From contig CAVRCF010000003.1 of the NCBI GenBank assembly GCA_963719505.1, positions 64,001-128,000 on the forward strand: a stretch of DNA of 64,000 bases, given 5' to 3'. Origin of the DNA: Halobacteriovoraceae bacterium (GTDB taxonomy: Bacteria; Bdellovibrionota; Bacteriovoracia; Bacteriovoracales; Bacteriovoracaceae). The notes under the pieces are model-generated. The model was given only the letters and a program-made list of their open reading frames with translations, was not told where the DNA came from and searched no databases. The translations under genes were made by a program, and so were the position numbers. This document shows, in pieces, positions 46,094-61,906 of the stretch. The number at the start of each line of letters is the position of its first letter. Position 1 is the stretch's first letter.

Positions 46094-46163
46094 AATTTAT
46101 CCTTTGTGTGCATATAACACCGAGAATTAAAATAAAGAATAGATTATTAAGTTTATGAAATTA

Positions 46164-48322: not shown

Positions 48323-48577
48323 ATGAGTTACACAGCAAACACAAACACGATTAACAAATCTGCACTTCAAATGATCCCTCAACTCTTCGATTCTAATTTG
48401 ATGGATAAATACTCAAACTTCGATGACTCAAATAACAAAGAGATGAGAATGATTGAGCAAGAGATTGAAGATTTAAGAGATGTGAATAGTATTTACGAAA
48501 ATGGAAGATTTGCTACTCAATTAAAGCTTGAACAACTTAAAGAGAAACTTAATCAACTTGGAAGAGTGTTAAGCTAA
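48323..48577 (+). CDS. Small coiled-coil hypothetical protein
   Basis: AAGGAG SD; heptad-like C-terminus. Confidence 0.6.
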   Translation: MSYTANTNTINKSALQMIPQLFDSNLMDKYSNFDDSNNKEMRMIEQEIEDLRDVNSIYENGRFATQLKLEQLKEKLNQLGRVLS

Positions 48578-48628
48578 AGCTTTTAAAGTTAAAAAATATC
48601 GTTTATCATAGATTCTAAAAGGAAATTT

Positions 48629-49456: not shown

Positions 49457-49465
49457 ATCTAAACT

Positions 49466-50677
49466 TTAAAGGCAGTTTAAAAGTGAGGCTCTATCAACCT
49501 TTCCACTGGGGAGCCTTGGAATACTTTCAAGTTTTTTAAAGTTCTTGAAAGGGATATTAACCGGAATTGTCTTTAATATTTGGATGTGCTGCTGTCTTGA
49601 TATTTCTATGATTGAAAAACAAAAGAGTTCATCTTTTGGGCTCACTAAGAGAACGAGTTCATTTTCTTTAAGAGTACTTTGAATAGCTTCTTGAAGATGT
49701 AAGAGACTAATTCTATTTCCATCAACTTTAATAATGTCATCAGTTCGGCCTTGGATTGTAATCAGACCTTCCTCTTGAGTTGCTTGATCTCCAGTTTGCA
49801 GCCATCCATCTTTATCGATAGGAGAATCTCCATCAATATAGCCAATCATCAATTGGTCACCTTTAAAAAAGATCTCTCCATTTTCGATTTTAAAATCAAT
49901 TCCCTCGACTGGGTATCCTGTAGCCTTTGTTAAAAAATTCTTGTCTTGAGAATTGAAACTAAGAGCCCTAGGTCCGATCTCTGTTTGGCCATAGTTATTA
50001 TAAATAGTGGCTTTGGGAAAAGCCTCGATGAGGTCTCTTCTAAGGTCTAATCCTAAAAAAGCACCTGCGCTCACAACGTGAGTGATGCAAGTGTTATCTT
50101 TAAGAAGTTTTATAAGGCTTGGAAAGTGTGAAGGGACACCGCTGACCATATTGATATGTTGCTCTTCCACAAGATTTTTTACCTTGATGAAGTGATTGAC
50201 CAAGTAGGTTGTTTTTCCTAATGATAGCGCCGTAAAAAGTTGCCCGATAAGGCCAAATGAATAGGACAGAGGAAGAAAAAGTATTTGAGATTCAATATCT
50301 GAAAAGTTTAAACTTTTTGAGATGGAGGAGATATTTCTTTGAATGCTTTTAAGTGAGAGCTGAACAAGCTTAAGTTTTCCTGACGATCCTGAAGTAAGGA
50401 GCACAAGAGCACAGTCTGGATGTAGGTTCTCTTTAGCCAATATGCTTTCGAGATATTGGGTCTCTTTAAAATCTTTAGGTAGCACCACAGCCGGAATATT
50501 GGCCTTAAGAGAAGCTAGTATTTTCACAATAAACTCAACTGTGGCTCTTGCCTCAAGAATCTGAGTTCCACTGAGCGTTTTAGTCTCCTTTTCCACTAAG
50601 GAATTAAGAGCACCGAAGGAGTAGCTTTTATCGTCTATAACGAGGGCAATAGCTTTAGAATTTATTTGTGATAACAT
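49466..50677 (-). CDS. Short AMP-dependent acyl-CoA/acyl-ACP ligase
   Basis: LTSGSSGKLK, YGQTE, TGD, GRTDD, PRLPSGK. Confidence 0.85.
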   Translation of the reverse strand: MLSQINSKAIALVIDDKSYSFGALNSLVEKETKTLSGTQILEARATVEFIVKILASLKANIPAVVLPKDFKETQYLESILAKENLHPDCALVLLTSGSSGKLKLVQLSLKSIQRNISSISKSLNFSDIESQILFLPLSYSFGLIGQLFTALSLGKTTYLVNHFIKVKNLVEEQHINMVSGVPSHFPSLIKLLKDNTCITHVVSAGAFLGLDLRRDLIEAFPKATIYNNYGQTEIGPRALSFNSQDKNFLTKATGYPVEGIDFKIENGEIFFKGDQLMIGYIDGDSPIDKDGWLQTGDQATQEEGLITIQGRTDDIIKVDGNRISLLHLQEAIQSTLKENELVLLVSPKDELFCFSIIEISRQQHIQILKTIPVNIPFKNFKKLESIPRLPSGKVDRASLLNCL

Positions 50678-50686
50678 AAATTTATT

Positions 50687-51730
50687 ATGAAATTAATCAA
50701 GCCTAATATCAATCTAAAAGTCAAAGGTTCTAGCACCTTCGTTCCACGTGAATTTGAGTATTCAAATTTGGACATTTTAGATATTCACCCTACAACTAAA
50801 ATTCTTCCAAAGTTTGCTAAGAAAAAACTTGCAAGCTCCATTGAGAAGAAATTTGGTTTTGAAAAAAGATGCATGATAAGAAAGCCCGGAGACGACTCAA
50901 GTGTCGCTGATCAACTCAGTAGCGAGGCGATGTCATCTCTTTGCCTTAAGAACTGTTATAAGGACAGCCAGGAGGAAGTTGGCTATTTCATCATGGGTAC
51001 AACGACATCTAGCCGCTATACTGGCTCACAAGCGACAAGTGTCTTAAGTTCGATTAAACAGTTTTCTCCCGCAGTTGAAATGATGGCAGGATGCTCAACC
51101 TCGTTAGCATCTCTCTATACCGGAATTATGGCCCTTCAAAGTGGGCACGACAATGTGATGGTCGTCTGCAGTGAGACAATGTCAAAGATTGTTAATCCCA
51201 AAATAAGAGAGACTTGGTTTGGACTGGCCGATGGGTCAGCAGCTCTTTGGTTAGAAGTGAACAATAAAGATCCAGATTTTAAAGCTCTAGGAATGATTTT
51301 TGGCACAGACGGTGAACATGTCGACATGTACACGACTCAAGGAAAGTTTCCGCCAAATCAAAAAGATCTTGATCATGGAGGCTATGTTTTGGCAGGGGAT
51401 GGTGACAAGCTTCGTGAACTTTCATTAAAGTATTATGGACAGATGATTGAGCATTTTAAAACGCAGTACAATCTAGAGGAAATAAATTATCTGATCCCTC
51501 ATCAAGTTAATAATTCAATCATTACCGAATTCGTTAACAGTCACTTTAAGGACTCAGCTCTTAAGGTGCTAAAAAATAATAAAGAAATAGGTAATATTGG
51601 AGGAGCATCAGTTCTCTATACACTTTGCGATTCTATTGAAAAAGATACTTTTAAAAAAGGTGATAAAATTTTACTCATGAGTGTGGGCGGGGGACTAAGT
51701 TTCTCGATGCATTTATGGGAAAAGCTATAA
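50687..51730 (+). CDS. FabH/KSIII-like ketosynthase (divergent)
   Basis: AGCST, ADGSAA, PHQVN, GNIGGAS, SVGGG. Confidence 0.85.
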   Translation: MKLIKPNINLKVKGSSTFVPREFEYSNLDILDIHPTTKILPKFAKKKLASSIEKKFGFEKRCMIRKPGDDSSVADQLSSEAMSSLCLKNCYKDSQEEVGYFIMGTTTSSRYTGSQATSVLSSIKQFSPAVEMMAGCSTSLASLYTGIMALQSGHDNVMVVCSETMSKIVNPKIRETWFGLADGSAALWLEVNNKDPDFKALGMIFGTDGEHVDMYTTQGKFPPNQKDLDHGGYVLAGDGDKLRELSLKYYGQMIEHFKTQYNLEEINYLIPHQVNNSIITEFVNSHFKDSALKVLKNNKEIGNIGGASVLYTLCDSIEKDTFKKGDKILLMSVGGGLSFSMHLWEKL

Positions 51731-52735
51731 AACTTCTAAAACCATATTCGCGGCTAAACCACCACCACCAGCTGAAATAAGAAGAACCTTCTCTCCTGAT
51801 TTTATGGGATAGGAGGTGAGAAGTTCATTTAAGGCCATCCCCACACTTGCTCCACTTGTGTTTCCATACTTCTTTACCGTTTGAATAACTTTCTCCATTG
51901 GAAAATTTAACTTCTTCGCTAAAGCTGTAATCATATGCAGATTGGCTTGATGAGGCACAACCCAAGATATATCTGTAAGATTCATTTTTGAATTCTCTAG
52001 AAGAGTTAGTGTGGTCTCGTGCATTCCGGCCAGAGCTTTTATATAAAGCTCTGCACCACCTTTCATTTTTAGATAGGGATGAAACTCCTCCTTTACATCT
52101 TGATAAGGTGTTCTTGAACCTCCGTGGGGAATTGAAATAATATCAGAGGCACTTCCATCGCTAAAGAGTTGGCCACAGAGGATTTGAAAAGAAGCTTCCT
52201 TTTTAGAAGAGGATATAACACAGCTTGATGCTCCATCTCCAAATAGAACAGAAGTTTGAAAGTCATCTGGATTTAAAAATTTAGATCGAATCTCACTTGA
52301 ACAAAGAAGAACATCTTTTTTAAACCCACTGGCTATTTGCGCTCCAGTCAAGAGTGAAGTGACAAACCCCGCACAGGCAGCCCCAAGATCAAAAGCTCCA
52401 ATATCTTGTAGATCGAGTCGATCTTGTAAAAGAGGGGCTGTCGGGGGGACTGGATAATCAGATGATACAGTGGAGAAGATCAGGCTAGCGAGATTTTCTA
52501 GGCAGTGAGGATGTAACCTTTTTAACGCCATTACACTTTCAAATCCTAGGTCGCTAACAGCTTTATCTTTTGAGACCCAGTAGCGTGTATTGATTCCTGT
52601 TCGCTTTTCTAAAAGTGAGGGTTTTATGTCACTTCCTATCCAGGCCGCAAAGTCCTCATTGGTTATAAGTCTATCCCCTTTTGCCATACTAGGGCCTATA
52701 ATAAATAAAGGATGATCCGGCTTATAGAAACTCAT
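51725..52735 (-). CDS. FabH/KSIII-like ketosynthase
   Basis: AACAGF, LFGDGA, PHQAN, GNTSGAS, SAGGG. Confidence 0.9.
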   Translation of the reverse strand: MSFYKPDHPLFIIGPSMAKGDRLITNEDFAAWIGSDIKPSLLEKRTGINTRYWVSKDKAVSDLGFESVMALKRLHPHCLENLASLIFSTVSSDYPVPPTAPLLQDRLDLQDIGAFDLGAACAGFVTSLLTGAQIASGFKKDVLLCSSEIRSKFLNPDDFQTSVLFGDGASSCVISSSKKEASFQILCGQLFSDGSASDIISIPHGGSRTPYQDVKEEFHPYLKMKGGAELYIKALAGMHETTLTLLENSKMNLTDISWVVPHQANLHMITALAKKLNFPMEKVIQTVKKYGNTSGASVGMALNELLTSYPIKSGEKVLLISAGGGGLAANMVLEVL

Positions 52736-52737
52736 TA

Positions 52738-53451
52738 TTAAAGCTTACCGGAATTTGGAATGGGGAGTCCACCGGAGACTTCAAGTTTTGTACCAGTTAT
52801 ATAAGAGCTTTCAGCGATAAGCATTCTTACCGGCGCAATAATATCTTCTGGATTGCCCATTCTATTTGTTAAGATCTGCTCGTTCATCTGGTTTTGATAG
52901 GCTTCTCTTTTCCAAATCATTTTATTTCGAGAAGTTTTAAAAAGGCCAAGCCTTAGAGTGTTGGCCAAGATATTTGAAGCGCCGTACTCAACTGCAATAT
53001 TGGTCATTAAACCCTCAAGGGCCGATTTAAGCATAATATAACTGGAGTATTTTGATGTTCCCATGATTGTTGAAATGGATGATATTAGAACGATTCTTCC
53101 AAAATCATTATCACGCATGCTCTCTAATGAAGACTTAATAATAGATAGATTTCCCTTGAGGTTGGACTTTATATAATCGAGCTCCATCTCAGTGTCGAGC
53201 TGTTCAAGCTTGGCAAGTTTATTCATTTTTGAACAGGCATTAAGAATTAAAATATCATAAGAATCTTTTGGGGCTTCATGATCAAAATGGTGAACGATAC
53301 CTTTTGCCTTAAAACCCTGATAACGAATTTCATTTTGCTTTAGAGAGTCTAAACTTGAACAGGTGTAGGTGATATCATAATCTTTATCAAAGGCTAAAAT
53401 AAGAGCATGAGCAATATCTGATGATCCTCCGGTTATAAGCAACTTTCTCAC
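52738..53451 (-). CDS. SDR oxidoreductase (FabG-like ketoreductase)
   Basis: ITGGSSDIA, GRIVLISS, YIMLK, YITG..L.VSGG. Confidence 0.85.
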   Translation of the reverse strand: MRKLLITGGSSDIAHALILAFDKDYDITYTCSSLDSLKQNEIRYQGFKAKGIVHHFDHEAPKDSYDILILNACSKMNKLAKLEQLDTEMELDYIKSNLKGNLSIIKSSLESMRDNDFGRIVLISSISTIMGTSKYSSYIMLKSALEGLMTNIAVEYGASNILANTLRLGLFKTSRNKMIWKREAYQNQMNEQILTNRMGNPEDIIAPVRMLIAESSYITGTKLEVSGGLPIPNSGKL

Positions 53452-53675
53452 TTTGTATTTCCTTTGATAAAGGACTCTATATTTTCTATTGTTCTAAAAG
53501 ACTCTTCTGTGAAGTCTTTAGTCGAAAGTTGCCTCTTTGTTGCCGTCTCTAACTCTGAAAATAAAAGGGCACAGGTTAGACTATCTAAACCATAACTTGA
53601 GAGATCGTCAGTCGCCTTTTCAGGGAGTGTCTCCAAGCCTACGTTTAATAGGGCATCTCTGATAATAGCTTCCAC
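53448..53675 (-). CDS. Acyl carrier protein 2
   Basis: GLDSL phosphopantetheine site; FRTIENI; start and stop overlap neighbours. Confidence 0.85.
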   Translation of the reverse strand: MEAIIRDALLNVGLETLPEKATDDLSSYGLDSLTCALLFSELETATKRQLSTKDFTEESFRTIENIESFIKGNTK

Positions 53676-55423
53676 TAGCTTACCCTTGCTCTAATTTTAT
53701 TCTTGATATTCCTAAAGTTCATTTTAAAGAGGAAAAGAGAGGTTCTTAAAAGAGATTTAGCCTCTTTAGTTAAAAGCTTACCTTCTTCCCATTTCTTTAG
53801 AGTCATTCTTCGTTTTAGTTTTCCTGAACTTGAGCGTAAAAGGACTCCAGGGGAGTAGAGTTCAATCGTAAAAATGGGAAGCGATTCAGAGGCAATGATC
53901 TTTCTGATTTTTCCTTTTATTTCGTCACCATCTTTGGAGATGAGAGTTGTCTGGGAAACTTCAGCAAGAACAACAAGCTCTTCAGTATCATTCTTTCTAT
54001 TATAGAATGATGAAACAATGACTCTTCCTTTTCTGAGACCTTCTATATGATATATTTTTTCTTCAAAAAGTGTTGGATAGTAGTTCTTTCCTCTTATGAC
54101 CATGGTGTCTTTTAGCCTGCCACAAAGGTAGAGTTCTCCTTGATGTATAAATCCCTCGTCACCCGTATCTAGATAATCATCGATAAAAAGACTTAATGTT
54201 TTTTCTAAATCGTTATAGTAACCAGAAGTTATAGATGGACCTTTAATAAGAACTCTTCCAATTTTTCCATCATCTACTTTTGCGCCCTTTTCATCGATGA
54301 TTTTTAAGTCAAAACTTTTTAGCATTCTACCAATGCAACATATTTCTTCGCCATTTGGGTCGAGTTTTATGTGACCCTTAGCTAGTTTTTCTTTATTAAT
54401 TTTTATAAAGCTCATCCCTCTTTTCTTGTCTACCATGGCCACGGCCAAGGTCGCCTCCGCCATACCGTAAACAGGAATTAGGGATGCGCAGTCAAACTTT
54501 GCAGGCTTCACATGGGCAATAAATTTTTCCATGGTTTCACGATAAACCATCTCAGCACCACACATAGCGACTTTGAGGTTAGACAAGTCGTAAGTGGCAA
54601 TCTTATCACTGGGGACTCGTTTTTGAATTAGACCATAAGCAAAGTTAGGCGCTGTAGTGCAAGTCGTTTTAAAATCACTCATCGCTTTGAGCCAAAGATA
54701 CGGTTTTCTTATAAAGTCATCAGGTCTAATCAAGGTGAGATCATTCCCAACAAATAAAGACACCATAAGGACACCCACGAGTCCCATATCGTGGTAGAGG
54801 GGAAGCCATGACGTTACAGATAGATCTATTGGGTCAATAGGTGTTTCCTCAATAATAATATTTGTATTAGTGACAGCATTTTCTTGTGTGATAATAACAG
54901 CTTTTGGGGCACCAGTAGTCCCAGAACTAAACTGTAAAAAACAGATATCAGACTTCTTATAGGTCTCGATATCAAATCTAAAGAGCTCGACACTTCTGTT
55001 GATGCTTTCTATTGTATGAATAGAGATTTGAGTAGAGCTCAGTATGTCATCGCAAAGAGATGATATGTTTAAATCTGTGATAAGGGCTTTACTCTCGATG
55101 GAGTTAATCATGGCACTTGTTCGGTCTGACCACTCGGTCATATCCGTTAGGCTTGCTGGTGGATAGAGAGAAACAGGCACTGCTCCTATCATTTGAGCCG
55201 CAAAAAAAGCGGCTAAAAATTCCTCACATGTAGGAAGCATTAAAGAGATAATGTCATCTTTTCCAAGTCCTATTTTTTTGTAATAGGCAGCATATTTTTT
55301 TGTGTCTTGTAAAAGTGCAGGATATCGATATTCTCGATACTGAGCTTTTCTATCCATAAAACGTATTACGGATCTATCTTCGCCAGCTCGTTCTAAAAGA
55401 AAGTGGAGCGTGTGAAAGTTCAT
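53675..55423 (-). CDS. Fatty acyl-AMP ligase (FAAL)
   Basis: FLQFSSGTTGAPK, SWLPLYHDMGL, TTAPNFAY, YGMAEATL, GRLKD..VIRGKNYYP, SSGK. Confidence 0.92.
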   Translation of the reverse strand: MNFHTLHFLLERAGEDRSVIRFMDRKAQYREYRYPALLQDTKKYAAYYKKIGLGKDDIISLMLPTCEEFLAAFFAAQMIGAVPVSLYPPASLTDMTEWSDRTSAMINSIESKALITDLNISSLCDDILSSTQISIHTIESINRSVELFRFDIETYKKSDICFLQFSSGTTGAPKAVIITQENAVTNTNIIIEETPIDPIDLSVTSWLPLYHDMGLVGVLMVSLFVGNDLTLIRPDDFIRKPYLWLKAMSDFKTTCTTAPNFAYGLIQKRVPSDKIATYDLSNLKVAMCGAEMVYRETMEKFIAHVKPAKFDCASLIPVYGMAEATLAVAMVDKKRGMSFIKINKEKLAKGHIKLDPNGEEICCIGRMLKSFDLKIIDEKGAKVDDGKIGRVLIKGPSITSGYYNDLEKTLSLFIDDYLDTGDEGFIHQGELYLCGRLKDTMVIRGKNYYPTLFEEKIYHIEGLRKGRVIVSSFYNRKNDTEELVVLAEVSQTTLISKDGDEIKGKIRKIIASESLPIFTIELYSPGVLLRSSSGKLKRRMTLKKWEEGKLLTKEAKSLLRTSLFLFKMNFRNIKNKIRARVS

Positions 55424-55656
55424 TATAATTTTGCCTCTATAATATGCGCCAGATCCCCGACAGTTTCGGGATTTTTCTGTAGTTCCTCAGGCTCGAGAGA
55501 AACTTCAAATTTCTCTTCAATCTCATCAATGATTGTCAAAATACCAAGACTATCAAGCCCAAGATCTTCTTTCAGTTTGTCTTCTTTGGTTACTTCTCTA
55601 TCTAAGTACCCATTTTTTTGCACAACTTCATTAATAAAAGATACAATTTTGTCCAT
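55423..55656 (-). CDS. Acyl carrier protein 1
   Basis: LGLDSL, IEEKF, TVGDL; CAGGAG SD. Confidence 0.9.
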   Translation of the reverse strand: MDKIVSFINEVVQKNGYLDREVTKEDKLKEDLGLDSLGILTIIDEIEEKFEVSLEPEELQKNPETVGDLAHIIEAKL

Positions 55657-55683
55657 TTTAATTCTCCTGATTTACCTTTATGG

Positions 55684-55699
55684 AGCAATTTAAGTGCCA
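55684..55699 (-). promoter_or_regulatory. Sigma54 -24/-12 promoter of the ACP-FAAL operon
   Basis: Minus strand TGGCAC-TTAAA-TTGCT, full consensus match. Confidence 0.8.
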
Positions 55700-55756
55700 A
55701 GATCAACAAGATATCTCTTCTGAATCTTTTCAAGGGAGTGTTTAAAAAATAAAAAG

Positions 55757-55773
55757 TGTCTAAAGTTTAGACA
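55757..55773. promoter_or_regulatory. Perfect 17-bp palindrome, putative activator site
   Basis: TGTCTAAA-G-TTTAGACA, 58 bp upstream of the -24 element. Confidence 0.65.
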
Positions 55774-55785
55774 TATTAAAACTTA
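55774..55785 (+). repeat. Left target-site duplication of IS (TATTAAAACTTA)
   Basis: Repeated exactly at 57099-57110; identity extends to ACATATTAAAACTTATG (55771-87 and 57096-112). Confidence 0.8.
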
Positions 55786-57098
55786 TGTGTTGAATCCCAG
55801 CGACTATGTCCGTTTAATATCCCAGCGATTATGTCCTACCTTGTGTGTCATATTGCTCGCTTTTTATAGTCATAAATCCTCTTTGTGTTGAACACTATTG
55901 GATATATTTCTTTACCCATAATATCAAAGCTCTGACTGCCATCAAGATGGGTATTTATATTCACTTCGCGACCTCGATAGCAAAACTTTTCGTCTATCAA
56001 CCAAGTAATTGCTTTGAAAGAAAATACGTTTCCAACTCCAATTTTTCTTCTCTCTTTTTTACAAAAAACTCTGTCTAAATTTCCAAAAACATTTTTCCTG
56101 TAAGCTGTATCGAAGCTTTGCGACTCTACCGAGAACTGCTTATTAAAAGCTTCTATAAAAGTTGTTCTCAAATAGTCATTTGCCTCTTCCAAAGTTTCTA
56201 TTTTATAAAACGAAAGCTCCGCTACCAGTCGATCTTGTAGAGTCCTAAAGAGACGCTCTACTCGTCCTTTAGCTTGTGGAGAGCTTGCAAGAATTAAGTT
56301 AATATTAACCTGATCAAAGGCTCTTGAGATCTGAGATTCCCAGTCTCGATCTACCTTTCCATAAATCCCTGCTTGATCCATGTAGAAGGCTTCTGGAATT
56401 CCATTTTTATCAATTACTTCCTTGATAACTTTCATCGAATGCATCGACTTCTCTCCATAAAAAAACTCTGCTGCTAAAATCTTTCCGGTTGCATCGTCGA
56501 TTGCTGCAATTAAGTCCGATTTGTGATTACCAAACCAAGGGTGATGGCTTCCATCGAACTGCACGAGCATACCTTCTTGAGGGACTCTGGCTCTAGGCTT
56601 GAAAGATCTTCTCTTCGCTCTTCTTGGAGCTTTTACAAGATTGTGTTTAGTTGCAATTCGATGAAGTGAAGACTTTGAAATTTTAATGTTTTCATTTTTA
56701 ATTAACATTTCGTTAAAGTGAGTGAGATTAAATCCAACATACTTATAAGTTAGAAGATCTACGATCAAAGCTTCTAGTCTTTCAGAAGTTTTATTTACTG
56801 GAGCAACACCAGAATTTTTATGTATGACTCCTATGAAGTCATGAGTCTCAACATTCTTAATAATACGTTGAGACTGGCGATACGACTTTTTAGATATGAT
56901 GGAAAATTCTTTAATAGAAATTTTTCCGGCTAAGACTTCACAGGCGAGTCTATAAAGCTTCATTTGTTTAGCATCCATGCTTATTTTTCCCATTTAACAC
57001 CTCAGGTTTGATTACCTGAGTATTGTAATATTAATGCGTTAAGTAGGACATTTTCGCTGGGAAATAAGGATAGGACATAATTGTCGAATCTTTATACA
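55786..57098 (-). mobile_element. Insertion sequence, IS1202/ISNCY-like (~1.3 kb)
   Basis: TGT...ACA ends; two subterminal repeats per end (ATGTCC core, three of four preceded by CCCAGCGA); flanking direct repeat; single DDE transposase. Confidence 0.85.
55848..56993 (-). CDS. DDE transposase (IS1202/ISNCY, IS481-related)
   Basis: N-terminal HTH; GMLVQFDGSHHPW, IDDATG, YMD, SPQAKGRVERLFRTLQDRL. Confidence 0.93.
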   Translation of the reverse strand: MGKISMDAKQMKLYRLACEVLAGKISIKEFSIISKKSYRQSQRIIKNVETHDFIGVIHKNSGVAPVNKTSERLEALIVDLLTYKYVGFNLTHFNEMLIKNENIKISKSSLHRIATKHNLVKAPRRAKRRSFKPRARVPQEGMLVQFDGSHHPWFGNHKSDLIAAIDDATGKILAAEFFYGEKSMHSMKVIKEVIDKNGIPEAFYMDQAGIYGKVDRDWESQISRAFDQVNINLILASSPQAKGRVERLFRTLQDRLVAELSFYKIETLEEANDYLRTTFIEAFNKQFSVESQSFDTAYRKNVFGNLDRVFCKKERRKIGVGNVFSFKAITWLIDEKFCYRGREVNINTHLDGSQSFDIMGKEIYPIVFNTKRIYDYKKRAI

Positions 57099-57110
57099 TA
57101 TTAAAACTTA
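57099..57110 (+). repeat. Right target-site duplication of IS
   Basis: TATTAAAACTTA immediately after the terminal ACA. Confidence 0.8.
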
Positions 57111-57157
57111 TGATCTGTATGGAGACAGATGTTTTGAAACCATGGTACATTTGACCT

Positions 57158-58456
57158 ATGAATTATAGATTTTTGAACCTTGCTGTCGGTGACGCATTTT
57201 ATCTGAGTGAAATTAAGGATCTTCTTGATCCTAATTCTGAGGTTGAGTTTTTTGTCCCCAAGGACTGTGAGAAAATCCAGAGAAAAACATTCGATGGCTT
57301 TTTTACGATGATAACGACTATTGAAGGTGAGAAAGTTGCTATTTGTTATAACGATTTTCGAGGTTTTGGTTCCACTTTTGGTGTTGAAAACTCTTTAAGG
57401 GTTGGAGCATTCCTAGACCATATTACTGATAAAAAGATCCCTCTTATATATTTGGCCAATAGCTCTGGAATACGAGTTCAAGACTCAAGAAAAGTCTTTA
57501 GAAACTCTTTTACTCTTGTGGCCAAGATAAAGAAATTTGCAAAAGAAAACTTATATATTTCAGCTTCCCTTGGACAGACTCTCGGATTAAGTGCATTGCT
57601 CTACTCGTTAGCAGATTATCGTCTGGCCTTAAAAGAGGTTTGTAAATTTAATTTGACGGGGCCTGAAATTTTTAAAATGTTTTTTGGAACAAAAGTTGAC
57701 TTCAGTGATGCCTGTAATGCGGAAACAATGTTGCTTGAAAATCAACTCGTTCAAGACATAGCAGTAGATAAAGCCGATCTTTTCAAGAGGCTCAGAGAGA
57801 TTTTTCAAAAGTCAGCCCCACAATTTAGTCCCGTGGTCACGAATATGGGAGAGCTTCAAAGGTGGATTGAAGGTGACTCTTTAGAACTTTTTTCGAGTTT
57901 TGGTAAATCAGTAAGAATTTTTTTGAAACAGACGGAGCAAGGAAAGATAGGCGTTTTTTATAATCCTTTTAATAACCCAAATATGATGCGGGTTATTGAC
58001 GTACAAAAAATGAGATTTGGTCTCAGCTTTTTTCAAAAATTAGGAATACCTATTTTAAATTTTGTTGATACTGCCGGTGGAGATCCTAGAATAAGTGAAA
58101 ATAATAATAATATCGCCAGGCAGTTATATGATCTTGCCAGTGATATTATTGATTATCCATATTATAAAAGGGCGATTATTTGTGGTCGCTGCTTTGGTGG
58201 CGCATCGATTTTATCTTTTCCAGTCTTCTTTGGAGGGGATAAAACCATCTTAATTGACGGAGCTAAAATAGGCATCATGGACAATAATATAATCAAGCAC
58301 CTTCTTTCAAACGCAAAACCTCTTCTATCAATTTGGGAAGAAAATAAAAAAGAAGAATTTGAAGACTATTCTGACTACGTCAAAGATGGACTGACAACCT
58401 CCTTAATGTCTATTGAGGAAGCTTTTGAGACTCTTACAAAAGAGATTAACTACTAG
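57158..58456 (+). CDS. Stand-alone acyl-CoA carboxyltransferase (beta-subunit-like, divergent)
   Basis: NDF..FGSTFG, NSSGIRVQD, LTGPE, FVDTAG, GRCFGG: two crotonase-fold CT domains. Confidence 0.78.
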   Translation: MNYRFLNLAVGDAFYLSEIKDLLDPNSEVEFFVPKDCEKIQRKTFDGFFTMITTIEGEKVAICYNDFRGFGSTFGVENSLRVGAFLDHITDKKIPLIYLANSSGIRVQDSRKVFRNSFTLVAKIKKFAKENLYISASLGQTLGLSALLYSLADYRLALKEVCKFNLTGPEIFKMFFGTKVDFSDACNAETMLLENQLVQDIAVDKADLFKRLREIFQKSAPQFSPVVTNMGELQRWIEGDSLELFSSFGKSVRIFLKQTEQGKIGVFYNPFNNPNMMRVIDVQKMRFGLSFFQKLGIPILNFVDTAGGDPRISENNNNIARQLYDLASDIIDYPYYKRAIICGRCFGGASILSFPVFFGGDKTILIDGAKIGIMDNNIIKHLLSNAKPLLSIWEENKKEEFEDYSDYVKDGLTTSLMSIEEAFETLTKEINY

Positions 58457-59736
58457 TTTTTCCTCTTCATTTTTATAAGAATTTCTCTGTCTGGCTTTAA
58501 TGTGATGAGCCCTTTTGGTTTTACATCCGGCTTTGACTCCAAAACAAAATCGAAGTGGTAAAAAAGATGCTTTATGACGGTATAAATTTCTGTTTCGGCA
58601 AGTATCTTTCCAATGCAATTTCTCGTTCCAAGGCTAAAGGGAAAATAGGTAAATTGATTAGGCTTTTTGAATTGTCCTTGTGAGTTTAGCCATCGAGATG
58701 TTTTAAAGACCTTTGCATCTTTGAAGTACTTCTCATCTCTTTGAGTCGTATAGGGGCTTAGACTTAAGTAATCTCCAGCTTTAATTTTTACTCCCGATAT
58801 TTCTACATCTTCTATAGCTTTTCTGCCGATATTCCAAACTGGAGGATAGAGTCTGAGCATCTCAAAAATAAAAGCCTTAACAATTGGCTGTTGTTCTAAG
58901 TCTTCGTAAAGAATTTTTTCTTCATAGCATTTTGATATCGCCTCGAGAAGCTCGCCAGTGATAAGACTGTCTTTCACACTTGTATAAAGAATCCACGTTA
59001 GTACTGTGGCCGTCGTTTCATGACCAGCTAAGAAGAGAGCAAGCATTTGGTCATTGATCTCTTTTGGGTCACAACCAGCATTTAAAAGAATACCTATAGC
59101 CCCATTTTCCTCGTCATTTGAATGATTTTCTACCAGTTCTGAAGAGATACTCTGGATGTTTAAAATAGCTTTTCTATATTTTAGGTGGTGGGGCAGAGGC
59201 AGCCACATGATCTTTTTATAACCAGGAATACTCATGTAGGCTATAAGCTTCAAAGCATCTTGCAAACTCTCGTCAATCACCTTCATTTTCTGATCTAGCT
59301 TTTGCCCAAAAAGTAACACTGAAATAATGTCCATTGAGACTTTGGTAAAGAACTCTTCAGTGTTTACTATTTGTGTTTCAGTGTTTTTCAATTGAAGAGA
59401 CATGAGTTCATTTATTTCAGTCTCAAAGCGAGAGACAAAAGCCTTTGAAAAAACTTTTGAAAGATCTTTCCTTCGCTTTATATGATCTTCACCGTCACTC
59501 GATAGAATATTGTCCCCAATTAAAGCTTTTGCATTATTTAAGGCCATTCCTTTGTTGAAGGACTTAGCTTTAGTGAGAAGAATTTCTTTGACGGCTTCTT
59601 GGTTATAAAAAAGATATATTTTTGTTCCGGCCATTCCAATCACATTTATGTCATGCCCTTCTTCAGACATTTTAAGCTGATAGGCCGGTGCATCTTTCAT
59701 ATACTTTATGGCAGAGGCTTTGTTTACTTTACTCAC
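58453..59736 (-). CDS. Cytochrome P450
   Basis: LAGHETT, EMLR (ExxR), heme motif FSLGTRNCIG. Confidence 0.95.
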   Translation of the reverse strand: MSKVNKASAIKYMKDAPAYQLKMSEEGHDINVIGMAGTKIYLFYNQEAVKEILLTKAKSFNKGMALNNAKALIGDNILSSDGEDHIKRRKDLSKVFSKAFVSRFETEINELMSLQLKNTETQIVNTEEFFTKVSMDIISVLLFGQKLDQKMKVIDESLQDALKLIAYMSIPGYKKIMWLPLPHHLKYRKAILNIQSISSELVENHSNDEENGAIGILLNAGCDPKEINDQMLALFLAGHETTATVLTWILYTSVKDSLITGELLEAISKCYEEKILYEDLEQQPIVKAFIFEMLRLYPPVWNIGRKAIEDVEISGVKIKAGDYLSLSPYTTQRDEKYFKDAKVFKTSRWLNSQGQFKKPNQFTYFPFSLGTRNCIGKILAETEIYTVIKHLFYHFDFVLESKPDVKPKGLITLKPDREILIKMKRKN

Positions 59737-60410
59737 TATGCGCTCTTTTGAAAGTAAGTGAATGCAGCGAGCTCAGTACCATCTTTAATTTTATGACGCA
59801 TAAGAAAATTCCAAGGTCCAATCATGCAGTTGTCTCCAACTTTTGTTCCTGGACCAAGTTTTGAGTTAATCCCCACAAAAGAGTTTTTCCCCATTGTCAC
59901 TTTCTTAAGATAGATGTGATTGTCTTGAATAAGGTGACAGCCAATTTGAACCTCATCACCGAGCATGGAGCCTGAACCGATTTCAATGAGCTGAAGATCA
60001 ACCAGATTTACGTACATGCTAGAATTGATACCAAAGGCAATTTTGGCACCCATGGCACGCCAGTATAGGTATTTTAAAATATAAGAAGAGTAGAATAGAT
60101 CTTGAAGTTGGAAGACTCTAATCGCTCGACCTAAGGAGAGATTCAGTCCCCACGCGATAAAACCTTTGTTCATCGTCATAGGAAAGCGTCCCTCTTTGAC
60201 ACGGGGAAGGCATAGCCTTATGCAAAAAATAAAAAATATAAAAATAAAGGGAATAAGAAGAAGAGGGGTAAAGGCTAAAATTTTAAATTGGATTCTATTT
60301 AATAGCCATGAGATAATAGAGTACTCTATGATAAAAGTTAGTATACCGGGCGTCAGTGTTAGGGTTGACGAAATAGTATCGCTTAAAAGAGTGCCAAATG
60401 GATTTTTCAT
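59736..60410 (-). CDS. Membrane-anchored hexapeptide-repeat (LbH) acyltransferase-like protein
   Basis: Two N-terminal TMs, 'YWRAMGAKIA', IEIG/VTMG/TKVG hexapeptide repeats; likely start MKNPF at 60410. Confidence 0.75.
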   Translation of the reverse strand: MKNPFGTLLSDTISSTLTLTPGILTFIIEYSIISWLLNRIQFKILAFTPLLLIPFIFIFFIFCIRLCLPRVKEGRFPMTMNKGFIAWGLNLSLGRAIRVFQLQDLFYSSYILKYLYWRAMGAKIAFGINSSMYVNLVDLQLIEIGSGSMLGDEVQIGCHLIQDNHIYLKKVTMGKNSFVGINSKLGPGTKVGDNCMIGPWNFLMRHKIKDGTELAAFTYFQKSA

Positions 60411-60441
60411 ATCAATCTTTTCGGCTTTAAAGGGTAAAATA

Positions 60442-61902
60442 ATGAGTATAATTAGATCTGTAATGTCGGTTGTCACTTATATGAAATATCGTCAATTCAT
60501 AAAAGCGTGCAAAAACCCCAAAGCGGCTCAAGCAAAGGCTTGGAAGAAAACCTTCTCAAAACTGGCCAATACCTCTTCGGTCAAGCACAACTTAAAAGAC
60601 AATAGAATTACGGAAATATCCGACTACGAAGCTCTGTTTAATGCTAAAAGCAAAAGCCGTTTTAATCCCCTAACAGGTGAGGAGATTCTTTTTTGGGCAC
60701 AAAGTGCTGGAACAACCGGAACCCAAAAAATCTTTCCTCTAAGTAAGTCTTACCAAGAGCAGTTTCAGACTTCTCTGCCTCCTTTTATCTATGGCTTTAT
60801 AAAGAAGTATAAAAACTTTTTGGTAAACCCTTCATTATATTTAGCTGCTATAGATCCTGATGAAAAAGCAGCCTCTGGAATACCAATTGGATTTATTTCA
60901 AATTATAATTATCATCACATGCCTAGATTTATAAAAAACATCTATGTGCTTCCTGATAAAACATTAAAAAATTCGAAGGTCTTCTCAAAGCAAGGTCCTC
61001 TCTATGCACTCGCGGGTGAGCTCAATAGTATTTTCGCCGTGACTCCATTGAGTATTCAAAAATATATGGAAAATATCATTATCAATTGGACTTTTTTTAT
61101 TGAAGAGCTAGAAAAAGAGAATGTAAGTATTTCAGAATCTAGACTTCGCCATCTCCGAGCTCTCGATCCAGATGCTCTGACACTCAAAGAGATTTGGCCA
61201 ACTTTAGAGTTTATTTGCTGTTGGAAGTCTTCTATATGTAAAAATCAGTTAAGAAATATGAAAGACCTCTTAGGTGGAGTTGCTGTTCATGATGCGATCT
61301 ATTCAGCTACTGAGGGATGGATTAATGTACCAACCCCAGAACTTCCTTTTGGTGGACCGGTTCATCCAAGGACCCATGTCGTCGAGTTTCTAGACGTTGA
61401 AAAAGAAGTTTTAGAAGAGAACCTGATCGACTTGTGGGAATTAGAGAAAGGAAAAGAATATGAAATCTTCATCACCAATAATATGGGCCTCGTTAGATAT
61501 CGAATTCAAGATATCGTAAAATGCACCGGCTTTTTTCATCGTTCACCTATTATCCACTTTGAAAGAAAGGCTTCTTCTCAAATAAGCTTGGGGCTTGTGA
61601 CGATCTCTGAAAATGAATTAGTCCAAGCATGCTTTAAGTTAAATATAAAGTTAGATGAGAATCACTACTTTACTCCCAATGAAGAGTCTGACGGGCTTGT
61701 TTACTGTTTTTCCGGAGAGAAGCTTACTCGTGAGGAGTTAATCAACTTGAATGAGTCTCTTAAAGAGATGAATGTAAATTTTAAGAAGTATAGCGAAAAT
61801 GGAACCATTAAAGGTGTGACTCAGCATAGAAGTAAAAAGAGTGAAAATCGATTTCATGCTCAAACAAAGCCTTGCTATCTTTATCAAGAATACTTAGGCT
61901 AA
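60442..61902 (+). CDS. GH3 family acyl-acid amido synthetase-like adenylating enzyme
   Basis: SAGTTGTQK, YSATEG, GLVRYRIQD (GH3 motifs I-III); start estimated at 60442. Confidence 0.85.
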   Translation: MSIIRSVMSVVTYMKYRQFIKACKNPKAAQAKAWKKTFSKLANTSSVKHNLKDNRITEISDYEALFNAKSKSRFNPLTGEEILFWAQSAGTTGTQKIFPLSKSYQEQFQTSLPPFIYGFIKKYKNFLVNPSLYLAAIDPDEKAASGIPIGFISNYNYHHMPRFIKNIYVLPDKTLKNSKVFSKQGPLYALAGELNSIFAVTPLSIQKYMENIIINWTFFIEELEKENVSISESRLRHLRALDPDALTLKEIWPTLEFICCWKSSICKNQLRNMKDLLGGVAVHDAIYSATEGWINVPTPELPFGGPVHPRTHVVEFLDVEKEVLEENLIDLWELEKGKEYEIFITNNMGLVRYRIQDIVKCTGFFHRSPIIHFERKASSQISLGLVTISENELVQACFKLNIKLDENHYFTPNEESDGLVYCFSGEKLTREELINLNESLKEMNVNFKKYSENGTIKGVTQHRSKKSENRFHAQTKPCYLYQEYLG

Positions 61903-61906
61903 AAAA

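What the first reader, a model, noticed from the sequence alone, without database searches (positions are those of the whole stretch)
50687..58456. Lipstatin/Ole-like head-to-head condensation logic: two KSIII + carboxyltransferase + AMP ligases + ACPs + SDR
Seen: both KSIII proteins keep Cys-His-Asn (AGCST/PHQVN/GN and AACAG/PHQAN/GN) yet differ strongly from each other. A carboxyltransferase is present with no biotin carrier or biotin carboxylase in the window. Known: lipstatin assembly uses two FabH-like proteins, a carboxyltransferase/acyl-CoA-synthetase/ACP protein and a dehydrogenase to make an alpha-branched beta-hydroxy acid or beta-lactone, and OleC-type AMP ligases close beta-lactones. 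Inference: an alkylmalonyl unit on one ACP is condensed with a fatty acyl chain on the other and then ketoreduced. Alkylpyrone or dialkylresorcinol chemistry is an alternative.
Basis: partly seen in the sequence, partly recalled or inferred. Interest (0 to 1): 0.72.

Follow-up and report, generated by a model that had tools for sequence, protein, structure and literature searches.

The report
Legionellol-type surfactant lipid gene cluster
This is a distant relative, in a predatory Bacteriovoracaceae-type bacterium, of the Legionella 'legionellol' surfactant gene cluster: two FabH-like condensing enzymes plus helper genes, recently split by a jumping gene, with chemistry still unsolved in any organism.

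Summary
Two divergent KSIII genes both keep Cys-His-Asn, and there are an SDR, two ACPs, a FAAL and a carboxyltransferase (CT). No biotin carboxylase or carrier lies in the window. The 381-aa ORF inside the range is an ISNCY transposase. A second, short AMP-ligase lies just outside the range. The cluster runs on through a P450, a membrane hexapeptide acyltransferase, a GH3 enzyme and an MFS pump (about 49466-62983).

The closest known system is not Ole or lipstatin. It is the L. pneumophila lol cluster (lpg2225-2234, legionellol surfactant). Nine of its ten gene types are present. KS1 and KS2 are 39% and 45% identical to the 353-aa and 336-aa L. pneumophila KSIIIs.

The core KS1+KS2+SDR+ACP+short ligase recurs in all 11 long related loci. 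FAAL (6 of 11) and CT (at least 7 of 11) are optional, so a CT- and FAAL-dependent head-to-head condensation cannot be the shared chemistry. Both KSs resemble FabH, not OleA, and lack the OleA/LstB-type glutamate.

The most likely product is an exported hydroxylated acyl-amine amphiphile. The Pls/PosA-like acyltransferase is a new candidate for the missing release step. This is a new variant of a known but biochemically unresolved kind.

The parts
49466..50677 (-). AMPs: short (403 aa) adenylate-forming ligase, counterpart of Lol6. Probably loads the starter acid onto ACP-B.
   Evidence: Pfam AMP-binding 94.5 bits. Best PDB matches are 4CL, DltA and MenE. Present in 11 of 11 long related loci, and beside ACP-B in several.
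50687..51730 (+). KS1: divergent FabH-like KSIII, counterpart of Lol4/lpg2228.
   Evidence: Cys136, His272 and Asn303 are invariant in 24 sequences. 39% identical to the 353-aa L. pneumophila protein. AF2 pLDDT 90.7, with FabH structures as top Foldseek hits.
51725..52735 (-). KS2: FabH/BioZ-like KSIII, counterpart of Lol8/lpg2232.
   Evidence: NF006829 243.4 bits against a cut-off of 249. PDB best is the 3-oxopimeloyl-ACP synthase at 162 bits, with FabH at 150 bits. 45% identical to the 336-aa L. pneumophila protein.
52738..53451 (-). FabG-like classical SDR ketoreductase, counterpart of Lol7.
   Evidence: adh_short_C2 85.5 bits. TIGR01830 90 bits. Present in 11 of 11 long related loci.
53448..53675 (-). 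ACP-B: the carrier protein conserved in the core cassette.
   Evidence: PP-binding hit and DSL motif. Found by tblastn in 8 of 11 long loci, plus one more by Pfam.
53675..55423 (-). FAAL: fatty acyl-AMP ligase, counterpart of Lol5.
   Evidence: NF006624 367 bits. Best PDB matches are FAALs: 3pbk at 223 bits, then FadD23, FadD32 and FadD28. Present in 6 of 11 long loci.
55423..55656 (-). ACP-A: second carrier protein. Its stop overlaps the FAAL start by one base.
   Evidence: PP-binding 38 bits. Found only in L020, L021 and G161 among the 11 long loci.
55788..57095 (-). ISNCY-family insertion sequence (transposase 55848-56993), inserted between the divergent ACP-A operon and the CT gene. It is flanked by a perfect 17-bp direct repeat (55771-55787 and 57096-57112).
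   Evidence: NF033594 302.8 bits, above the cut-off of 250. Repeat and ends. Absent at this site in the 84%-identical relative L020. Four full-length and one near-full copy at 100% identity in the genome.
57158..58456 (+). Divergent two-domain carboxyltransferase, functional counterpart of Lol3.
   Evidence: Pfam Carboxyl_trans 59 bits. Both halves align to PccB. Full length compared with L020. Only 16-17% identical to the canonical CT of the Legionella-type loci.
58453..59736 (-). Cytochrome P450, probably a tailoring hydroxylase.
   Evidence: Pfam p450 206 bits. Also present in L020 and G161.
59736..60410 (-). Hexa: membrane-anchored left-handed beta-helix acyltransferase, like one repeat of the Pls/PosA C-terminal domain. 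Candidate chain-release and amide-forming enzyme.
   Evidence: Hexapep hit. TIGR02353 58.8 bits. His168 is invariant in 16 sequences. The AF2 model has two long N-terminal helices plus a beta-helix. VIA Z 8.4 to maltose O-acetyltransferase. Present in 9 of 11 long loci.
60439..61902 (+). GH3-family acyl-acid amido synthetase, counterpart of Lol1. The start codon is approximate.
   Evidence: GH3 and GH3_M Pfam hits. PDB matches are JAR1 and other GH3 enzymes. Present in 9 of 11 long loci.
61907..62983 (+). MFS transporter, counterpart of Lol10. Probable exporter.
   Evidence: MFS_1 hit. Syntenic in L020, G104 and L034.

Best explanation
This is a legionellol-type (lol-like) cluster of discrete enzymes in a Bacteriovoracaceae-type genome. 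It probably makes an exported amphiphilic lipid: a hydroxylated acyl or short polyketide chain joined to an amine.

Shown here:
- Gene content and order match the lol cluster of L. pneumophila and a widely scattered family of related cassettes.
- All genes are intact and under purifying selection.
- A young IS sits in the divergent promoter region between the ACP-A operon and the CT gene.

Inferred steps:
1. The short ligase AMPs loads a small carboxylic acid onto ACP-B. The FAAL loads a medium or long fatty acid onto ACP-A.
2. KS2 and KS1, both FabH-like with an intact Cys-His-Asn triad, each perform a decarboxylative Claisen condensation with a malonyl-type extender. The FabG-like SDR reduces the beta-keto groups. 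No dehydratase or enoyl reductase is encoded, so the hydroxyl groups stay.
3. The CT, working with biotin carboxylase and carrier encoded elsewhere, supplies or edits a carboxylated extender. This step is optional across the family.
4. The membrane-anchored Pls/PosA-like hexapeptide acyltransferase releases the ACP-bound chain onto an amine such as an ornithine- or lysine-type diamine. GH3 can form a further amide from a free acid.
5. The P450 hydroxylates the product and the MFS pump exports it.
For: Match to the lol cluster. Table 1 of PMC5640695 lists GH3 509 aa, acyl-CoA dehydrogenase 563, CT 479, KSIII 353, acyl-CoA synthetase 581, ligase 464, reductase 250, KSIII 336, ACP 75 and MFS. The window has 9 of these 10 types.
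- KS1 is 39% identical to a 353-aa L. pneumophila KSIII (E 3e-72).
- KS2 is 45% identical to a 336-aa L. pneumophila KSIII (E 3.4e-90).
- Metagenome loci L037 and L040 carry KS1 homologues 73% identical to the L. pneumophila protein. Their gene order and sizes match lol1-lol8, with a Hexa gene in addition.

Conservation in the 11 distinct relatives with at least 20 kb (plus):
- AMPs 11, KS2 11, SDR 11.
- ACP-B at least 9.
- Hexa 9, GH3 9.
- A CT of either type at least 7.
- FAAL 6.

Other support:
- KS1 and KS2 form two clades (100/100) with the same subgroups in each.
- pN is 0.04-0.30 against saturated pS of 0.72-0.83 for all 12 genes compared with L020.
- Lipid-export genes sit beside relatives: MMPL in G104 and L021, and LolA-like plus MacB-like in L034.
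- A knock-out of lpg2228 in L. pneumophila abolished legionellols and sliding motility.
- The Pls/PosA C-terminal domain is built of three units, each a transmembrane-helix pair plus a beta-helix. It makes amide bonds from carrier-bound thioesters to diamino acids (passages of PMC10522769).
Against: - No product is known for this organism.
- The biosynthesis of legionellol itself is stated to be unclear.
- The GH3 knock-out did not change legionellol production in L. pneumophila.
- The window lacks the acyl-CoA dehydrogenase (lol2).
- Its CT belongs to a different, very divergent lineage: 16-17% identity, and no tblastn link at 1e-6.
- Identities to the Legionella-type genes are only 25-45%, so the product is probably different.
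- Hexa's link to Pls/PosA rests on a 58.8-bit hit to a model whose cut-off is 423 bits. Foldseek gave no match at E <= 0.001.
- The IS may have silenced the CT gene or the operon.
- That L. pneumophila protein P0101 is lpg2228 is inferred from its length and family, not read from a locus tag.
Confidence: 0.65

Rival explanations
1. Head-to-head, mycolic- or lipstatin-like condensation. The FAAL loads a fatty acid on ACP-A. The CT alpha-carboxylates a second acyl thioester to an alkylmalonyl unit. A KSIII, possibly a KS1/KS2 heterodimer, joins the two chains. The SDR then reduces the product to an alpha-branched beta-hydroxy acid or beta-lactone precursor.
For: - The window, L020 and G161 hold every part needed: FAAL, two ACPs, CT, two KSIIIs and a ketoreductase.
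- KS1 and KS2 always travel together and have co-diversified, as would be expected of a heterodimer.
- LstA and LstB are also KAS-III-like, 23% identical to each other and only 18-26% identical to FabH (passage of PMC12141560). FabH-likeness alone therefore does not exclude this chemistry.
Against: - Relatives lack the CT (L021, L026, L030), the FAAL (G011, G104, L026, L030, L034) or a second ACP (8 of 11), yet keep both KSs.
- Both KSs keep full triads, whereas in the passage read only LstA is reported with the triad and LstB contributes Glu60.
- Neither KS family has an acidic residue in the loop about 26 residues before the catalytic Cys, where OleA Glu117 lies. That position is derived from numbering I recall.
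- The KS1-family profile scores 112 bits to FabH, while the OleA entries are not within E 1e-8.
- There is no OleB- or OleD-type gene.
Confidence: 0.15
2. A primer or elongation module for a special cell-bound lipid, such as an unusual hydroxy fatty acid for an envelope lipid, and not a secreted secondary metabolite.
For: - KS2 is very close to the FabH and BioZ models (243 bits against a cut-off of 249).
- The SDR is FabG-like.
- The Hexa soluble part also resembles LpxD-type N-acyltransferases, though weakly.
- MMPL and LolA-like genes in relatives point to delivery into the envelope.
Against: - Distribution is patchy. KS1 homologues occur in 4 of 238 genomes of the class at E <= 1e-40 and in 8 of 401 of a phylum sample at E <= 1e-60. 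This is typical of accessory metabolism.
- An MFS pump is part of the cluster.
- In L. pneumophila the homologous cluster gives extractable legionellols and a surfactant film.
Confidence: 0.1
3. The cluster is present but currently silent or decaying, because the IS has split the shared promoter region.
For: - The IS sits 62 bp upstream of the CT start and 131 bp upstream of the ACP-A start. The target duplication is perfect, and there are further 100%-identical copies in the genome. The insertion is therefore recent.
- In G011 the CT carries 5 in-frame stops and AMPs lies in three frames. Decay of this cluster does occur in the family, unless these are assembly errors.
Against: - All 12 genes in the window are full length relative to L020.
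- The transposase points the same way as the ACP-A operon, so read-through transcription could drive it.
- Promoter-like sites are no more frequent than chance, so nothing can be read from them (43 found against 40.5 +/- 5.7 expected).
Confidence: 0.1

Closest known systems
Legionellol (lol1-lol10, lpg2225-lpg2234) cluster of Legionella pneumophila (Johnston et al. 2016, PMC5640695). I read section 3.2 with Table 1 and the Discussion.
   Same: - The same set of discrete enzymes: GH3, CT, a KSIII of about 350 aa, a FAAL of about 580 aa, a short ligase, a FabG-like reductase, a KSIII of 336 aa, a small ACP and an MFS pump.
- KS1 and KS2 are 39% and 45% identical to the L. pneumophila proteins of matching length.
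- Legionella-type metagenome loci also carry the Hexa gene.
   Different: - No acyl-CoA dehydrogenase (lol2).
- The CT belongs to a different, highly divergent lineage.
- Extra parts: a second ACP, a P450 and an IS.
- Different gene order and a different phylum.
- The product is unknown and probably not legionellol itself.
OleABCD olefin/beta-lactone pathway and the lipstatin LstABCD and nocardiolactone systems
   Same: Two KAS-III-like genes, an adenylate-forming enzyme and a reductase lie side by side. The pair is about as divergent from each other (about 30%) as LstA is from LstB (23%).
   Different: - The KSs score as FabH-like, not OleA-like.
- Both keep full triads.
- No Glu at the OleA-Glu117-type loop.
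- ACPs are present, whereas Ole and Lst use acyl-CoAs.
- The reductase is a classical SDR, not 3beta-HSD-like.
- No OleB.
Mycolic acid condensation system (FadD32 FAAL, Pks13, AccD4 carboxyltransferase, CmrA reductase). This comparison is from my own knowledge.
   Same: A FAAL plus carrier protein, a CT that would need a biotin carboxylase and carrier in trans, a condensing enzyme and a ketoreductase.
   Different: - The condensing enzymes are free KSIIIs, not a type I PKS.
- The FAAL is far below the FadD32 model cut-offs (206-231 bits against 875-975).
- The CT and the FAAL are dispensable in related cassettes.
C-terminal polymerisation domain of Pls/PosA homopoly-amino-acid synthetases (PMC10522769, passages read)
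   Same: Hexa has the same unit: a pair of transmembrane helices, short helices, then a left-handed beta-helix. It hits the NCBIfam model of that domain. Those domains form amides from carrier-bound thioesters to lysine or ornithine side-chain amines.
   Different: Hexa is a free-standing single unit of about 224 aa, not three fused units on an NRPS. Its score is far below the model's cut-off, and no activity is known.
BioZ (3-oxopimeloyl-ACP synthase) and housekeeping FabH
   Same: These are KS2's best solved relatives (162 and 150 bits). KS2 has the same triad and a FabH-like dimer-interface loop.
   Different: - A separate housekeeping FabH exists in the genome, 34% identical.
- At the position that is Phe in the genome's own FabH, the 15 KS2 rows carry other residues, small (V, S, T, A) in most.
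- KS2 is embedded in an accessory cluster.

Membership tests
Legionellol-type (lol) cluster | Paired KSIIIs of the Lol4 (353 aa) and Lol8 (336 aa) types | tested here: met
   KS1 is 39% identical over 98% coverage to the 353-aa L. pneumophila protein. KS2 is 45% identical over 100% coverage to the 336-aa protein. The two form clades with matching subgroups.
Legionellol-type (lol) cluster | FAAL, short ligase, FabG-like reductase, small ACP, GH3 and MFS encoded together | tested here: met
   All are present in 49466-62983. The same set is seen in L037 and L040, whose KS1 homologue is 73% identical to the L. pneumophila protein.
Legionellol-type (lol) cluster | Acyl-CoA dehydrogenase (lol2) | tested here: not met
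   No Acyl-CoA_dh domain in any of the 62 window ORFs scanned. It is present in L037 and L040.
Legionellol-type (lol) cluster | Canonical PccB-like carboxyltransferase (lol3) | tested here: inconclusive
   A CT is present but scores only 59 bits to Pfam, against about 300 bits for the L037 and L040 CTs. It is 16-17% identical to them.
Legionellol-type (lol) cluster | Makes legionellol and a surfactant film | not testable with these tools
   No chemistry is available for this organism.
OleA / LstAB head-to-head thiolases | Closer to OleA than to FabH in sequence and fold | tested here: not met
   KS1: FabH 58.7 bits against 30.8 bits (C-terminal 80 residues only) for entries 3row and 3s21, which I recall to be OleA. 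Profile: 112 bits to FabH, with those entries absent at 1e-8. KS2: absent at 1e-10. The listed Foldseek rows (to rank 48) are FabH-type KAS III structures and PqsD. No LstA or LstB sequence was available for comparison.
OleA / LstAB head-to-head thiolases | Catalytic glutamate reaching into the partner's active site (OleA Glu117, LstB Glu60) | tested here: not met
   The loop about 26 residues before the catalytic Cys reads GTTTxxRYTGSQ in 21 of 21 KS1 rows (invariant Arg, no acidic residue). In 15 of 15 KS2 rows it is a FabH-like SGD(Y/F)xxPP. The positional equivalence uses recalled OleA numbering. Glu117 and Glu60 themselves are cited.
OleABCD pathway | OleB alpha/beta-hydrolase and OleD 3beta-HSD-type reductase in the cluster | tested here: not met
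   None among the ORFs of 43822-63372. The only alpha/beta-hydrolase in the window, at 32767-33546, is 16 kb away.
OleABCD pathway | OleC-type beta-lactone synthetase | tested here: inconclusive
   Two ANL enzymes are present. Their best matches are FAALs and 4CL, DltA and MenE. No OleC reference was available.
DarABC dialkylresorcinol system | DarB-type ketosynthase | tested here: not met
   NF053539 scores 38 bits (KS1) and 40 bits (KS2) against a cut-off of 550. NF005293 scores 35 and 52 bits against a cut-off of 450.
Housekeeping FabH | Passes the FabH models and is the genome's only close copy | tested here: not met
   KS2 scores 243.4 against 249 (NF006829) and 235 against 292 (TIGR00747). 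KS1 scores 120 and 95 bits. Another FabH-like gene lies on contig C1.
Mycolic-type condensation (FadD32, Pks13, AccD4) | FadD32-type FAAL and a Pks13 type I PKS | tested here: not met
   FadD32 models score 206-231 bits against cut-offs of 875-975. No type I PKS domain is in the window.
ISNCY insertion sequence | ISNCY transposase, target duplication, several genomic copies | tested here: met
   NF033594 scores 302.8 bits, above the cut-off of 250. There is a 17-bp perfect direct repeat. Four full-length and one near-full copy at 100% identity, plus 8 copies at 66%.
Pls/PosA C-terminal (TM pair + beta-helix) domain | Matches the domain model and has the TM-pair plus left-handed beta-helix unit | tested here: inconclusive
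   TIGR02353 scores 58.8 bits (window) and 51.3 bits (L040) against a cut-off of 423 for the three-unit model. The AF2 topology fits one unit. Structural matches are only generic hexapeptide acetyltransferases.

The most novel reading that the evidence does not exclude
The membrane-anchored hexapeptide acyltransferase (59736-60410) is a free-standing, probably trimeric single unit of the Pls/PosA polymerisation domain. It would be the long-missing chain-release enzyme of lol-type pathways, coupling the ACP-tethered hydroxyacyl or polyketide chain at the membrane to an ornithine- or lysine-type amine. On this reading the KS1+KS2+SDR+ACP+ligase+Hexa cassette is a widespread but unrecognised route to secreted acyl-amine surfactants. 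It is shared by predatory bacteria (Bdellovibrionota, Myxococcota) and amoeba-associated bacteria (Legionella).
Probability: 0.3. Interest if true: 0.7.

Novelty: new variant of a known kind. Interest (0 to 1): 0.5.

Why it matters
Only one member of this cluster family has been studied. That is the legionellol surfactant cluster of L. pneumophila, and its authors state that the pathway is unclear and that no chain-release enzyme could be identified.

This window shows that the same cassette exists, intact and under selection, in a non-pathogenic predatory lineage and in many uncultured bacteria.

Comparing the variants separates a fixed core (two KSIIIs, a reductase, an ACP and a short ligase) from optional parts (FAAL, CT, GH3, oxygenases). 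It also points to a conserved Pls/PosA-like membrane acyltransferase as the candidate for the missing release step.

The chemistry can therefore be tested in a harmless source organism. Such work could uncover a new class of bacterial acyl-amine surfactants.

My literature searches for legionellol, for lpg2225-2232 and for GH3 with KSIII clusters found no description of this family outside Legionella.

Tried and rejected
- The genome-contig scan with KS1 alone gave only two weak, unrelated hits.
- The search of earlier findings returned nothing, by place or by sequence.
- Literature searches on FabH with FAAL in Legionella, and on GH3 with KSIII, were mostly noise until the three-term whole-word search.
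- The promoter and terminator scan was at chance level: 43 sites against 40.5 +/- 5.7 expected, and 13 against 11.1 +/- 3.0. I draw no conclusion about the promoters.
- Foldseek on the Hexa model gave no match at E <= 0.001.
- VIA-align gave only generic hexapeptide acetyltransferases, Z 8.4 and 8.1.
- The ESM Atlas gave only unnamed or generic Hexapep clusters.
- The word-based homologue search for Hexa found 7 proteins, none of them named for Legionella.
The trimer idea is untested.
- I did not run a KS1/KS2 heterodimer model. Any two thiolase-fold proteins are likely to dock by likeness to solved dimers, and the controls would not separate a hetero- from a homodimer.
- The Stewart et al. 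2011 paper on surfactant genes is not held. Whether the bbcB surfactant gene lies in the lol locus remains open.
- I considered that mem275 (48629-49456) belongs to the cluster and rejected it. It is absent from L020 and has homologues in genomes lacking the cluster.
- I considered a sphingolipid Spt-like reading of 37658-38854 and rejected it. It scores as an aspartate aminotransferase.
- A reference phylogeny with OleA, LstA/B, DarB, PpyS and MxnB could not be built, because those sequences could not be fetched. Scores against PDB entries and NCBIfam models were used instead.

Full report
WHAT IS THERE

- KS1, 50687-51730 (+), carries the motifs AGCST, PHQVN and GN.
- KS2, 51725-52735 (-), carries AACAG, PHQAN and GN.
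- The two are only about 30% identical to each other.
- On the minus strand a tightly packed operon runs ACP-A (55423-55656), FAAL (53675-55423), ACP-B (53448-53675), SDR (52738-53451), KS2. Gene ends overlap or abut by 1-4 bases.
- The CT, 57158-58456 (+), aligns to PccB in both its N and C halves.
- No biotin carboxylase or carrier domain occurs in the 62 window ORFs scanned. The genome has three Biotin_carb_C loci elsewhere, so a CT could borrow its partners in trans.

- The 381-aa ORF in the middle of the range (55848-56993, -) is an ISNCY transposase (302.8 bits against a cut-off of 250).
  - The element spans 55788-57095 and is flanked by a perfect 17-bp direct repeat.
  - It is absent from the same intergenic spot in a close relative.
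  - It occurs as four full-length and one near-full copy at 100% identity in the genome, plus eight copies of a 66%-identical relative.
  - It is therefore a recent insertion, 62 bp upstream of the CT start and 131 bp upstream of the ACP-A start.
- A second, short adenylate-forming ligase (AMPs, 49466-50677, -) diverges from KS1 with only 9 bp between the two start codons.
- Downstream lie a P450 (58453-59736, -), a membrane hexapeptide acyltransferase 'Hexa' (59736-60410, -), a GH3-family enzyme (about 60439-61902, +) and an MFS transporter (61907-62983, +).
- proB begins at 63482, so the cluster ends before it.

ORGANISM

- The window's genome falls in a class of 238 held genomes, almost all in one family.
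- Two same-family genomes match proteins that sources label Halobacteriovoraceae and Bacteriovoracaceae bacterium.
- The host is therefore a Bacteriovoracaceae-type predatory bacterium, not Legionella.
- KS1 homologues are rare. They occur in 4 of 238 genomes of the class at E <= 1e-40 and in 8 of 401 of a phylum sample at E <= 1e-60. Both counts include the window's genome.

RELATED LOCI

I mapped the window's proteins by tblastn onto the three class relatives (G011, G104, G161) and 21 metagenome loci.

- L022 duplicates G104 and was dropped.
- Twelve contigs shorter than 11 kb were left out of the counts. They agree as far as they reach: AMPs lies next to KS1 in L023, L024, L028, L029, L031, L033 and L038.

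Counts in the 11 distinct relatives with at least 20 kb:

| Gene | Present in |
|---|---|
| AMPs | 11 |
| KS2 | 11 |
| SDR | 11 |
| ACP-B | 8 by tblastn, 1 more by Pfam |
| Hexa | 9 |
| GH3 | 9 |
| FAAL | 6 |
| Window-type CT | 5 |
| Canonical CT | 2 further loci (L037, L040) |
| ACP-A | 3 |
| P450 | 2 |

- Two loci with 70% GC have KS1 homologues 77% identical to a Myxococcus stipitatus protein. They hold only Hexa-KS1-ACP-SDR-KS2-AMPs.
- L020 is 84-87% identical in both KSs and is fully syntenic with the window. It lacks the IS and the membrane-protein gene at 48629-49456.
- G161 has the same CT / ACP-A-FAAL-ACP-B-SDR-KS2 arrangement.
- In a maximum-likelihood tree, KS1 and KS2 form two deep clades (100/100) with the same subgroups in each. 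The genome's own FabH joins the KS2 side on a long branch.
- Compared with L020, all 12 genes show pN of 0.04-0.30 against saturated pS of 0.72-0.83. They are real genes under constraint.

CLOSEST KNOWN SYSTEM

A whole-word search for GH3, Legionella and acyl carrier protein found Johnston et al. 2016 (PMC5640695). I read section 3.2 with Table 1 and the Discussion.

The legionellol cluster lol1-lol10 (lpg2225-2234) encodes:

- GH3, 509 aa
- 'isovaleryl-CoA dehydrogenase', 563 aa
- 'propionyl-CoA carboxylase', 479 aa
- KSIII, 353 aa
- acyl-CoA synthetase, 581 aa
- acyl-CoA ligase, 464 aa
- 3-oxoacyl reductase, 250 aa
- KSIII, 336 aa
- ACP, 75 aa
- MFS pump

What the paper reports:

- Inactivating lpg2228 (the 353-aa KSIII) removed the legionellols and sliding motility.
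- Inactivating the GH3 gene changed nothing.
- Legionellol A (C23H42N2O7) contains an ornithine-derived 2,5-diaminopentane-1,3,4-triol.
- Forms acylated with C12 or C14 hydroxy fatty acids are the better surfactant.
- The authors say the pathway is unclear and that chain-release enzymes are missing.

How the window compares:

- KS1 is 39% identical to a 353-aa L. pneumophila KSIII found on hundreds of contigs of that species.
- KS2 is 45% identical to a 336-aa L. pneumophila KSIII.
- Loci L037 and L040 have KS1 homologues 73% identical to the L. pneumophila protein. They show the lol order and sizes: GH3 508-530 aa, acyl-CoA dehydrogenase 563-564, CT 472-480, KS1 349-350, FAAL, ligase 447-456, SDR 250-251, KS2 336. 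They also carry a Hexa gene next to GH3.
- The window therefore holds 9 of the 10 lol gene types. It lacks the acyl-CoA dehydrogenase.
- Its CT is of another lineage: 16-17% identical, 59 against about 300 Pfam bits, though the conserved glycine positions are shared.
- Equating the named L. pneumophila proteins with lpg2228 and lpg2232 rests on length and family, not on a locus tag.

TESTS OF THE OLE/LIPSTATIN READING

- By phmmer against PDB sequences, KS1 scores 58.7 bits to FabH. It scores 30.8 bits, over the C-terminal 80 residues only, to entries I recall as X. campestris OleA.
- KS2 scores 162 bits to 3-oxopimeloyl-ACP synthase (BioZ) and 150 bits to FabH. The OleA entries are not within 1e-10.
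- A profile of 24 KS1-family sequences gives these scores, and the OleA entries are not within 1e-8:

| PDB entry | Bits |
|---|---|
| FabH | 112 |
| PqsD | 72 |
| 4v2p (recalled as MxnB) | 61 |
| PqsC | 51 |
| BioZ | 51 |
| CorB | 42 |

- The AF2 model of KS1 (pLDDT 90.7) has FabH-type KAS III structures and PqsD as all its listed Foldseek neighbours.
- OleA needs Glu117 (title cited in PMC7064751). LstAB needs LstB Glu60, and in that passage LstA is the subunit reported with the triad (passage of PMC12141560).
- In the loop about 26 residues before the catalytic Cys, all 21 KS1 rows read GTTTxxRYTGSQ, with an invariant Arg and no acidic residue. All 15 KS2 rows have a FabH-like SGD(Y/F)xxPP loop.
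- The DarB models fail by a wide margin.
- One caveat remains. LstA and LstB are themselves only 18-26% identical to FabH, and I could not fetch their sequences. Likeness to FabH lowers but does not exclude Lst-like chemistry.
- The stronger argument is comparative. The KS pair persists in cassettes that have no CT, no FAAL and only one ACP. A CT- and FAAL-dependent head-to-head condensation therefore cannot be the family's shared reaction.

MOST LIKELY MECHANISM (inferred)

1. AMPs has DltA, MenE and 4CL as its best solved relatives. It sits next to ACP-B in L032, L034, L035, L038 and L040 and probably loads a small acid onto ACP-B. The FAAL loads a fatty acid onto ACP-A.
2. KS2 and KS1 each add a malonyl-type unit by decarboxylative condensation. 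The FabG-like SDR reduces the keto groups. With no dehydratase or enoyl reductase encoded, the hydroxyls persist. This fits the secondary alcohols and hydroxy fatty acids reported for legionellols.
3. The CT supplies or edits a carboxylated extender.
4. Hexa is the candidate release enzyme.
   - It has an invariant His168.
   - Its AF2 model shows two long N-terminal helices, short helices and a left-handed beta-helix.
   - It hits the NCBIfam model of the Pls/PosA C-terminal domain (58.8 bits here and 51.3 bits in L040).
   - According to PMC10522769 (passages), that domain consists of three units, each a transmembrane-helix pair plus a beta-helix, and polymerises carrier-bound lysine or ornithine through amide bonds.
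   - This is a lead and not a membership. The score is far below the model's cut-off of 423, and structural searches found only generic hexapeptide acetyltransferases.
5. GH3 can add a second amide, the P450 hydroxylates and the MFS pump exports.

MMPL, LolA-like and MacB-like genes sit next to relatives. This supports an exported or surface lipid.

VERDICT

- The thing is a new variant of a known but biochemically unsolved kind, the lol-type cassette, in a new phylum, with a recent IS insertion.
- My literature searches found no description of the family outside Legionella.
- Supplementary files of the two Legionella papers were not read. They may hold the legionellol structure notes and wider cluster maps.

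Noticed in passing
window 55788-57095; G000 contigs C1, C2, C5: The ISNCY element has four full-length and one near-full copy at 100% identity, plus 8 copies of a 66%-identical relative, in the 3.69-Mb genome. Each end carries two copies of a motif of about 16 bases in inverted orientation.
   Followed up: partly
window 55757-55773: A perfect 17-base palindrome (8-1-8) sits in the ACP-A/CT intergenic region and is nearly conserved in L020. It is a possible operator site, and the IS target duplication overlaps its last 3 bases.
   Followed up: no
window 48629-49456: A 275-aa multi-pass membrane protein with no Pfam match lies between a small ORF and AMPs. It is absent at this spot in L020. It has homologues in genomes that lack the cluster (13 of 41 genomes searched), so it is probably unrelated to the pathway.
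   Followed up: yes
window 49466-50677, 52738-53675: AMPs, SDR and ACP-B are much more diverged from L020 (54-67% amino-acid identity, dN 0.27-0.38) than the other nine cluster genes (76-94%, dN 0.04-0.17). This may reflect a change of starter unit.
   Followed up: partly
window 50678-50686; L023; L013: The start codons of AMPs and KS1 diverge with only 9 bp between them (9 bp in L023, 6 bp in G011). Their promoters must therefore lie inside the neighbouring coding regions.
   Followed up: no
window 51014-51016 (KS1 Arg110): The KS1 family has an invariant Arg in the dimer-interface loop, where the genome's own FabH has Phe and where OleA has its catalytic Glu (recalled). In the KS2 family this position is not Phe and is mostly small (V, S, T, A). 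This hints at an anionic or larger primer.
   Followed up: partly
L013 11147-12496 and 14484-15743 (G011): In G011 the cluster's CT has 5 in-frame stops within a stretch of about 40 codons, and the AMPs gene is spread over three frames. This is either decay or errors in a 66%-complete assembly.
   Followed up: partly
L037 8094-9536, L040 8456-9874 versus window 57158-58456: Two very different carboxyltransferase lineages (16-17% identical) are attached to the same cassette in different bacterial groups.
   Followed up: partly
window 14965-18300: The ribonucleotide reductase genes look broken up. The small-subunit ORF is only 159 aa (profile positions 1-142 of 281). The large subunit lies in two overlapping ORFs (15978-17141 and 17032-18300). 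A frameshift, an intervening element or an assembly error is possible.
   Followed up: no
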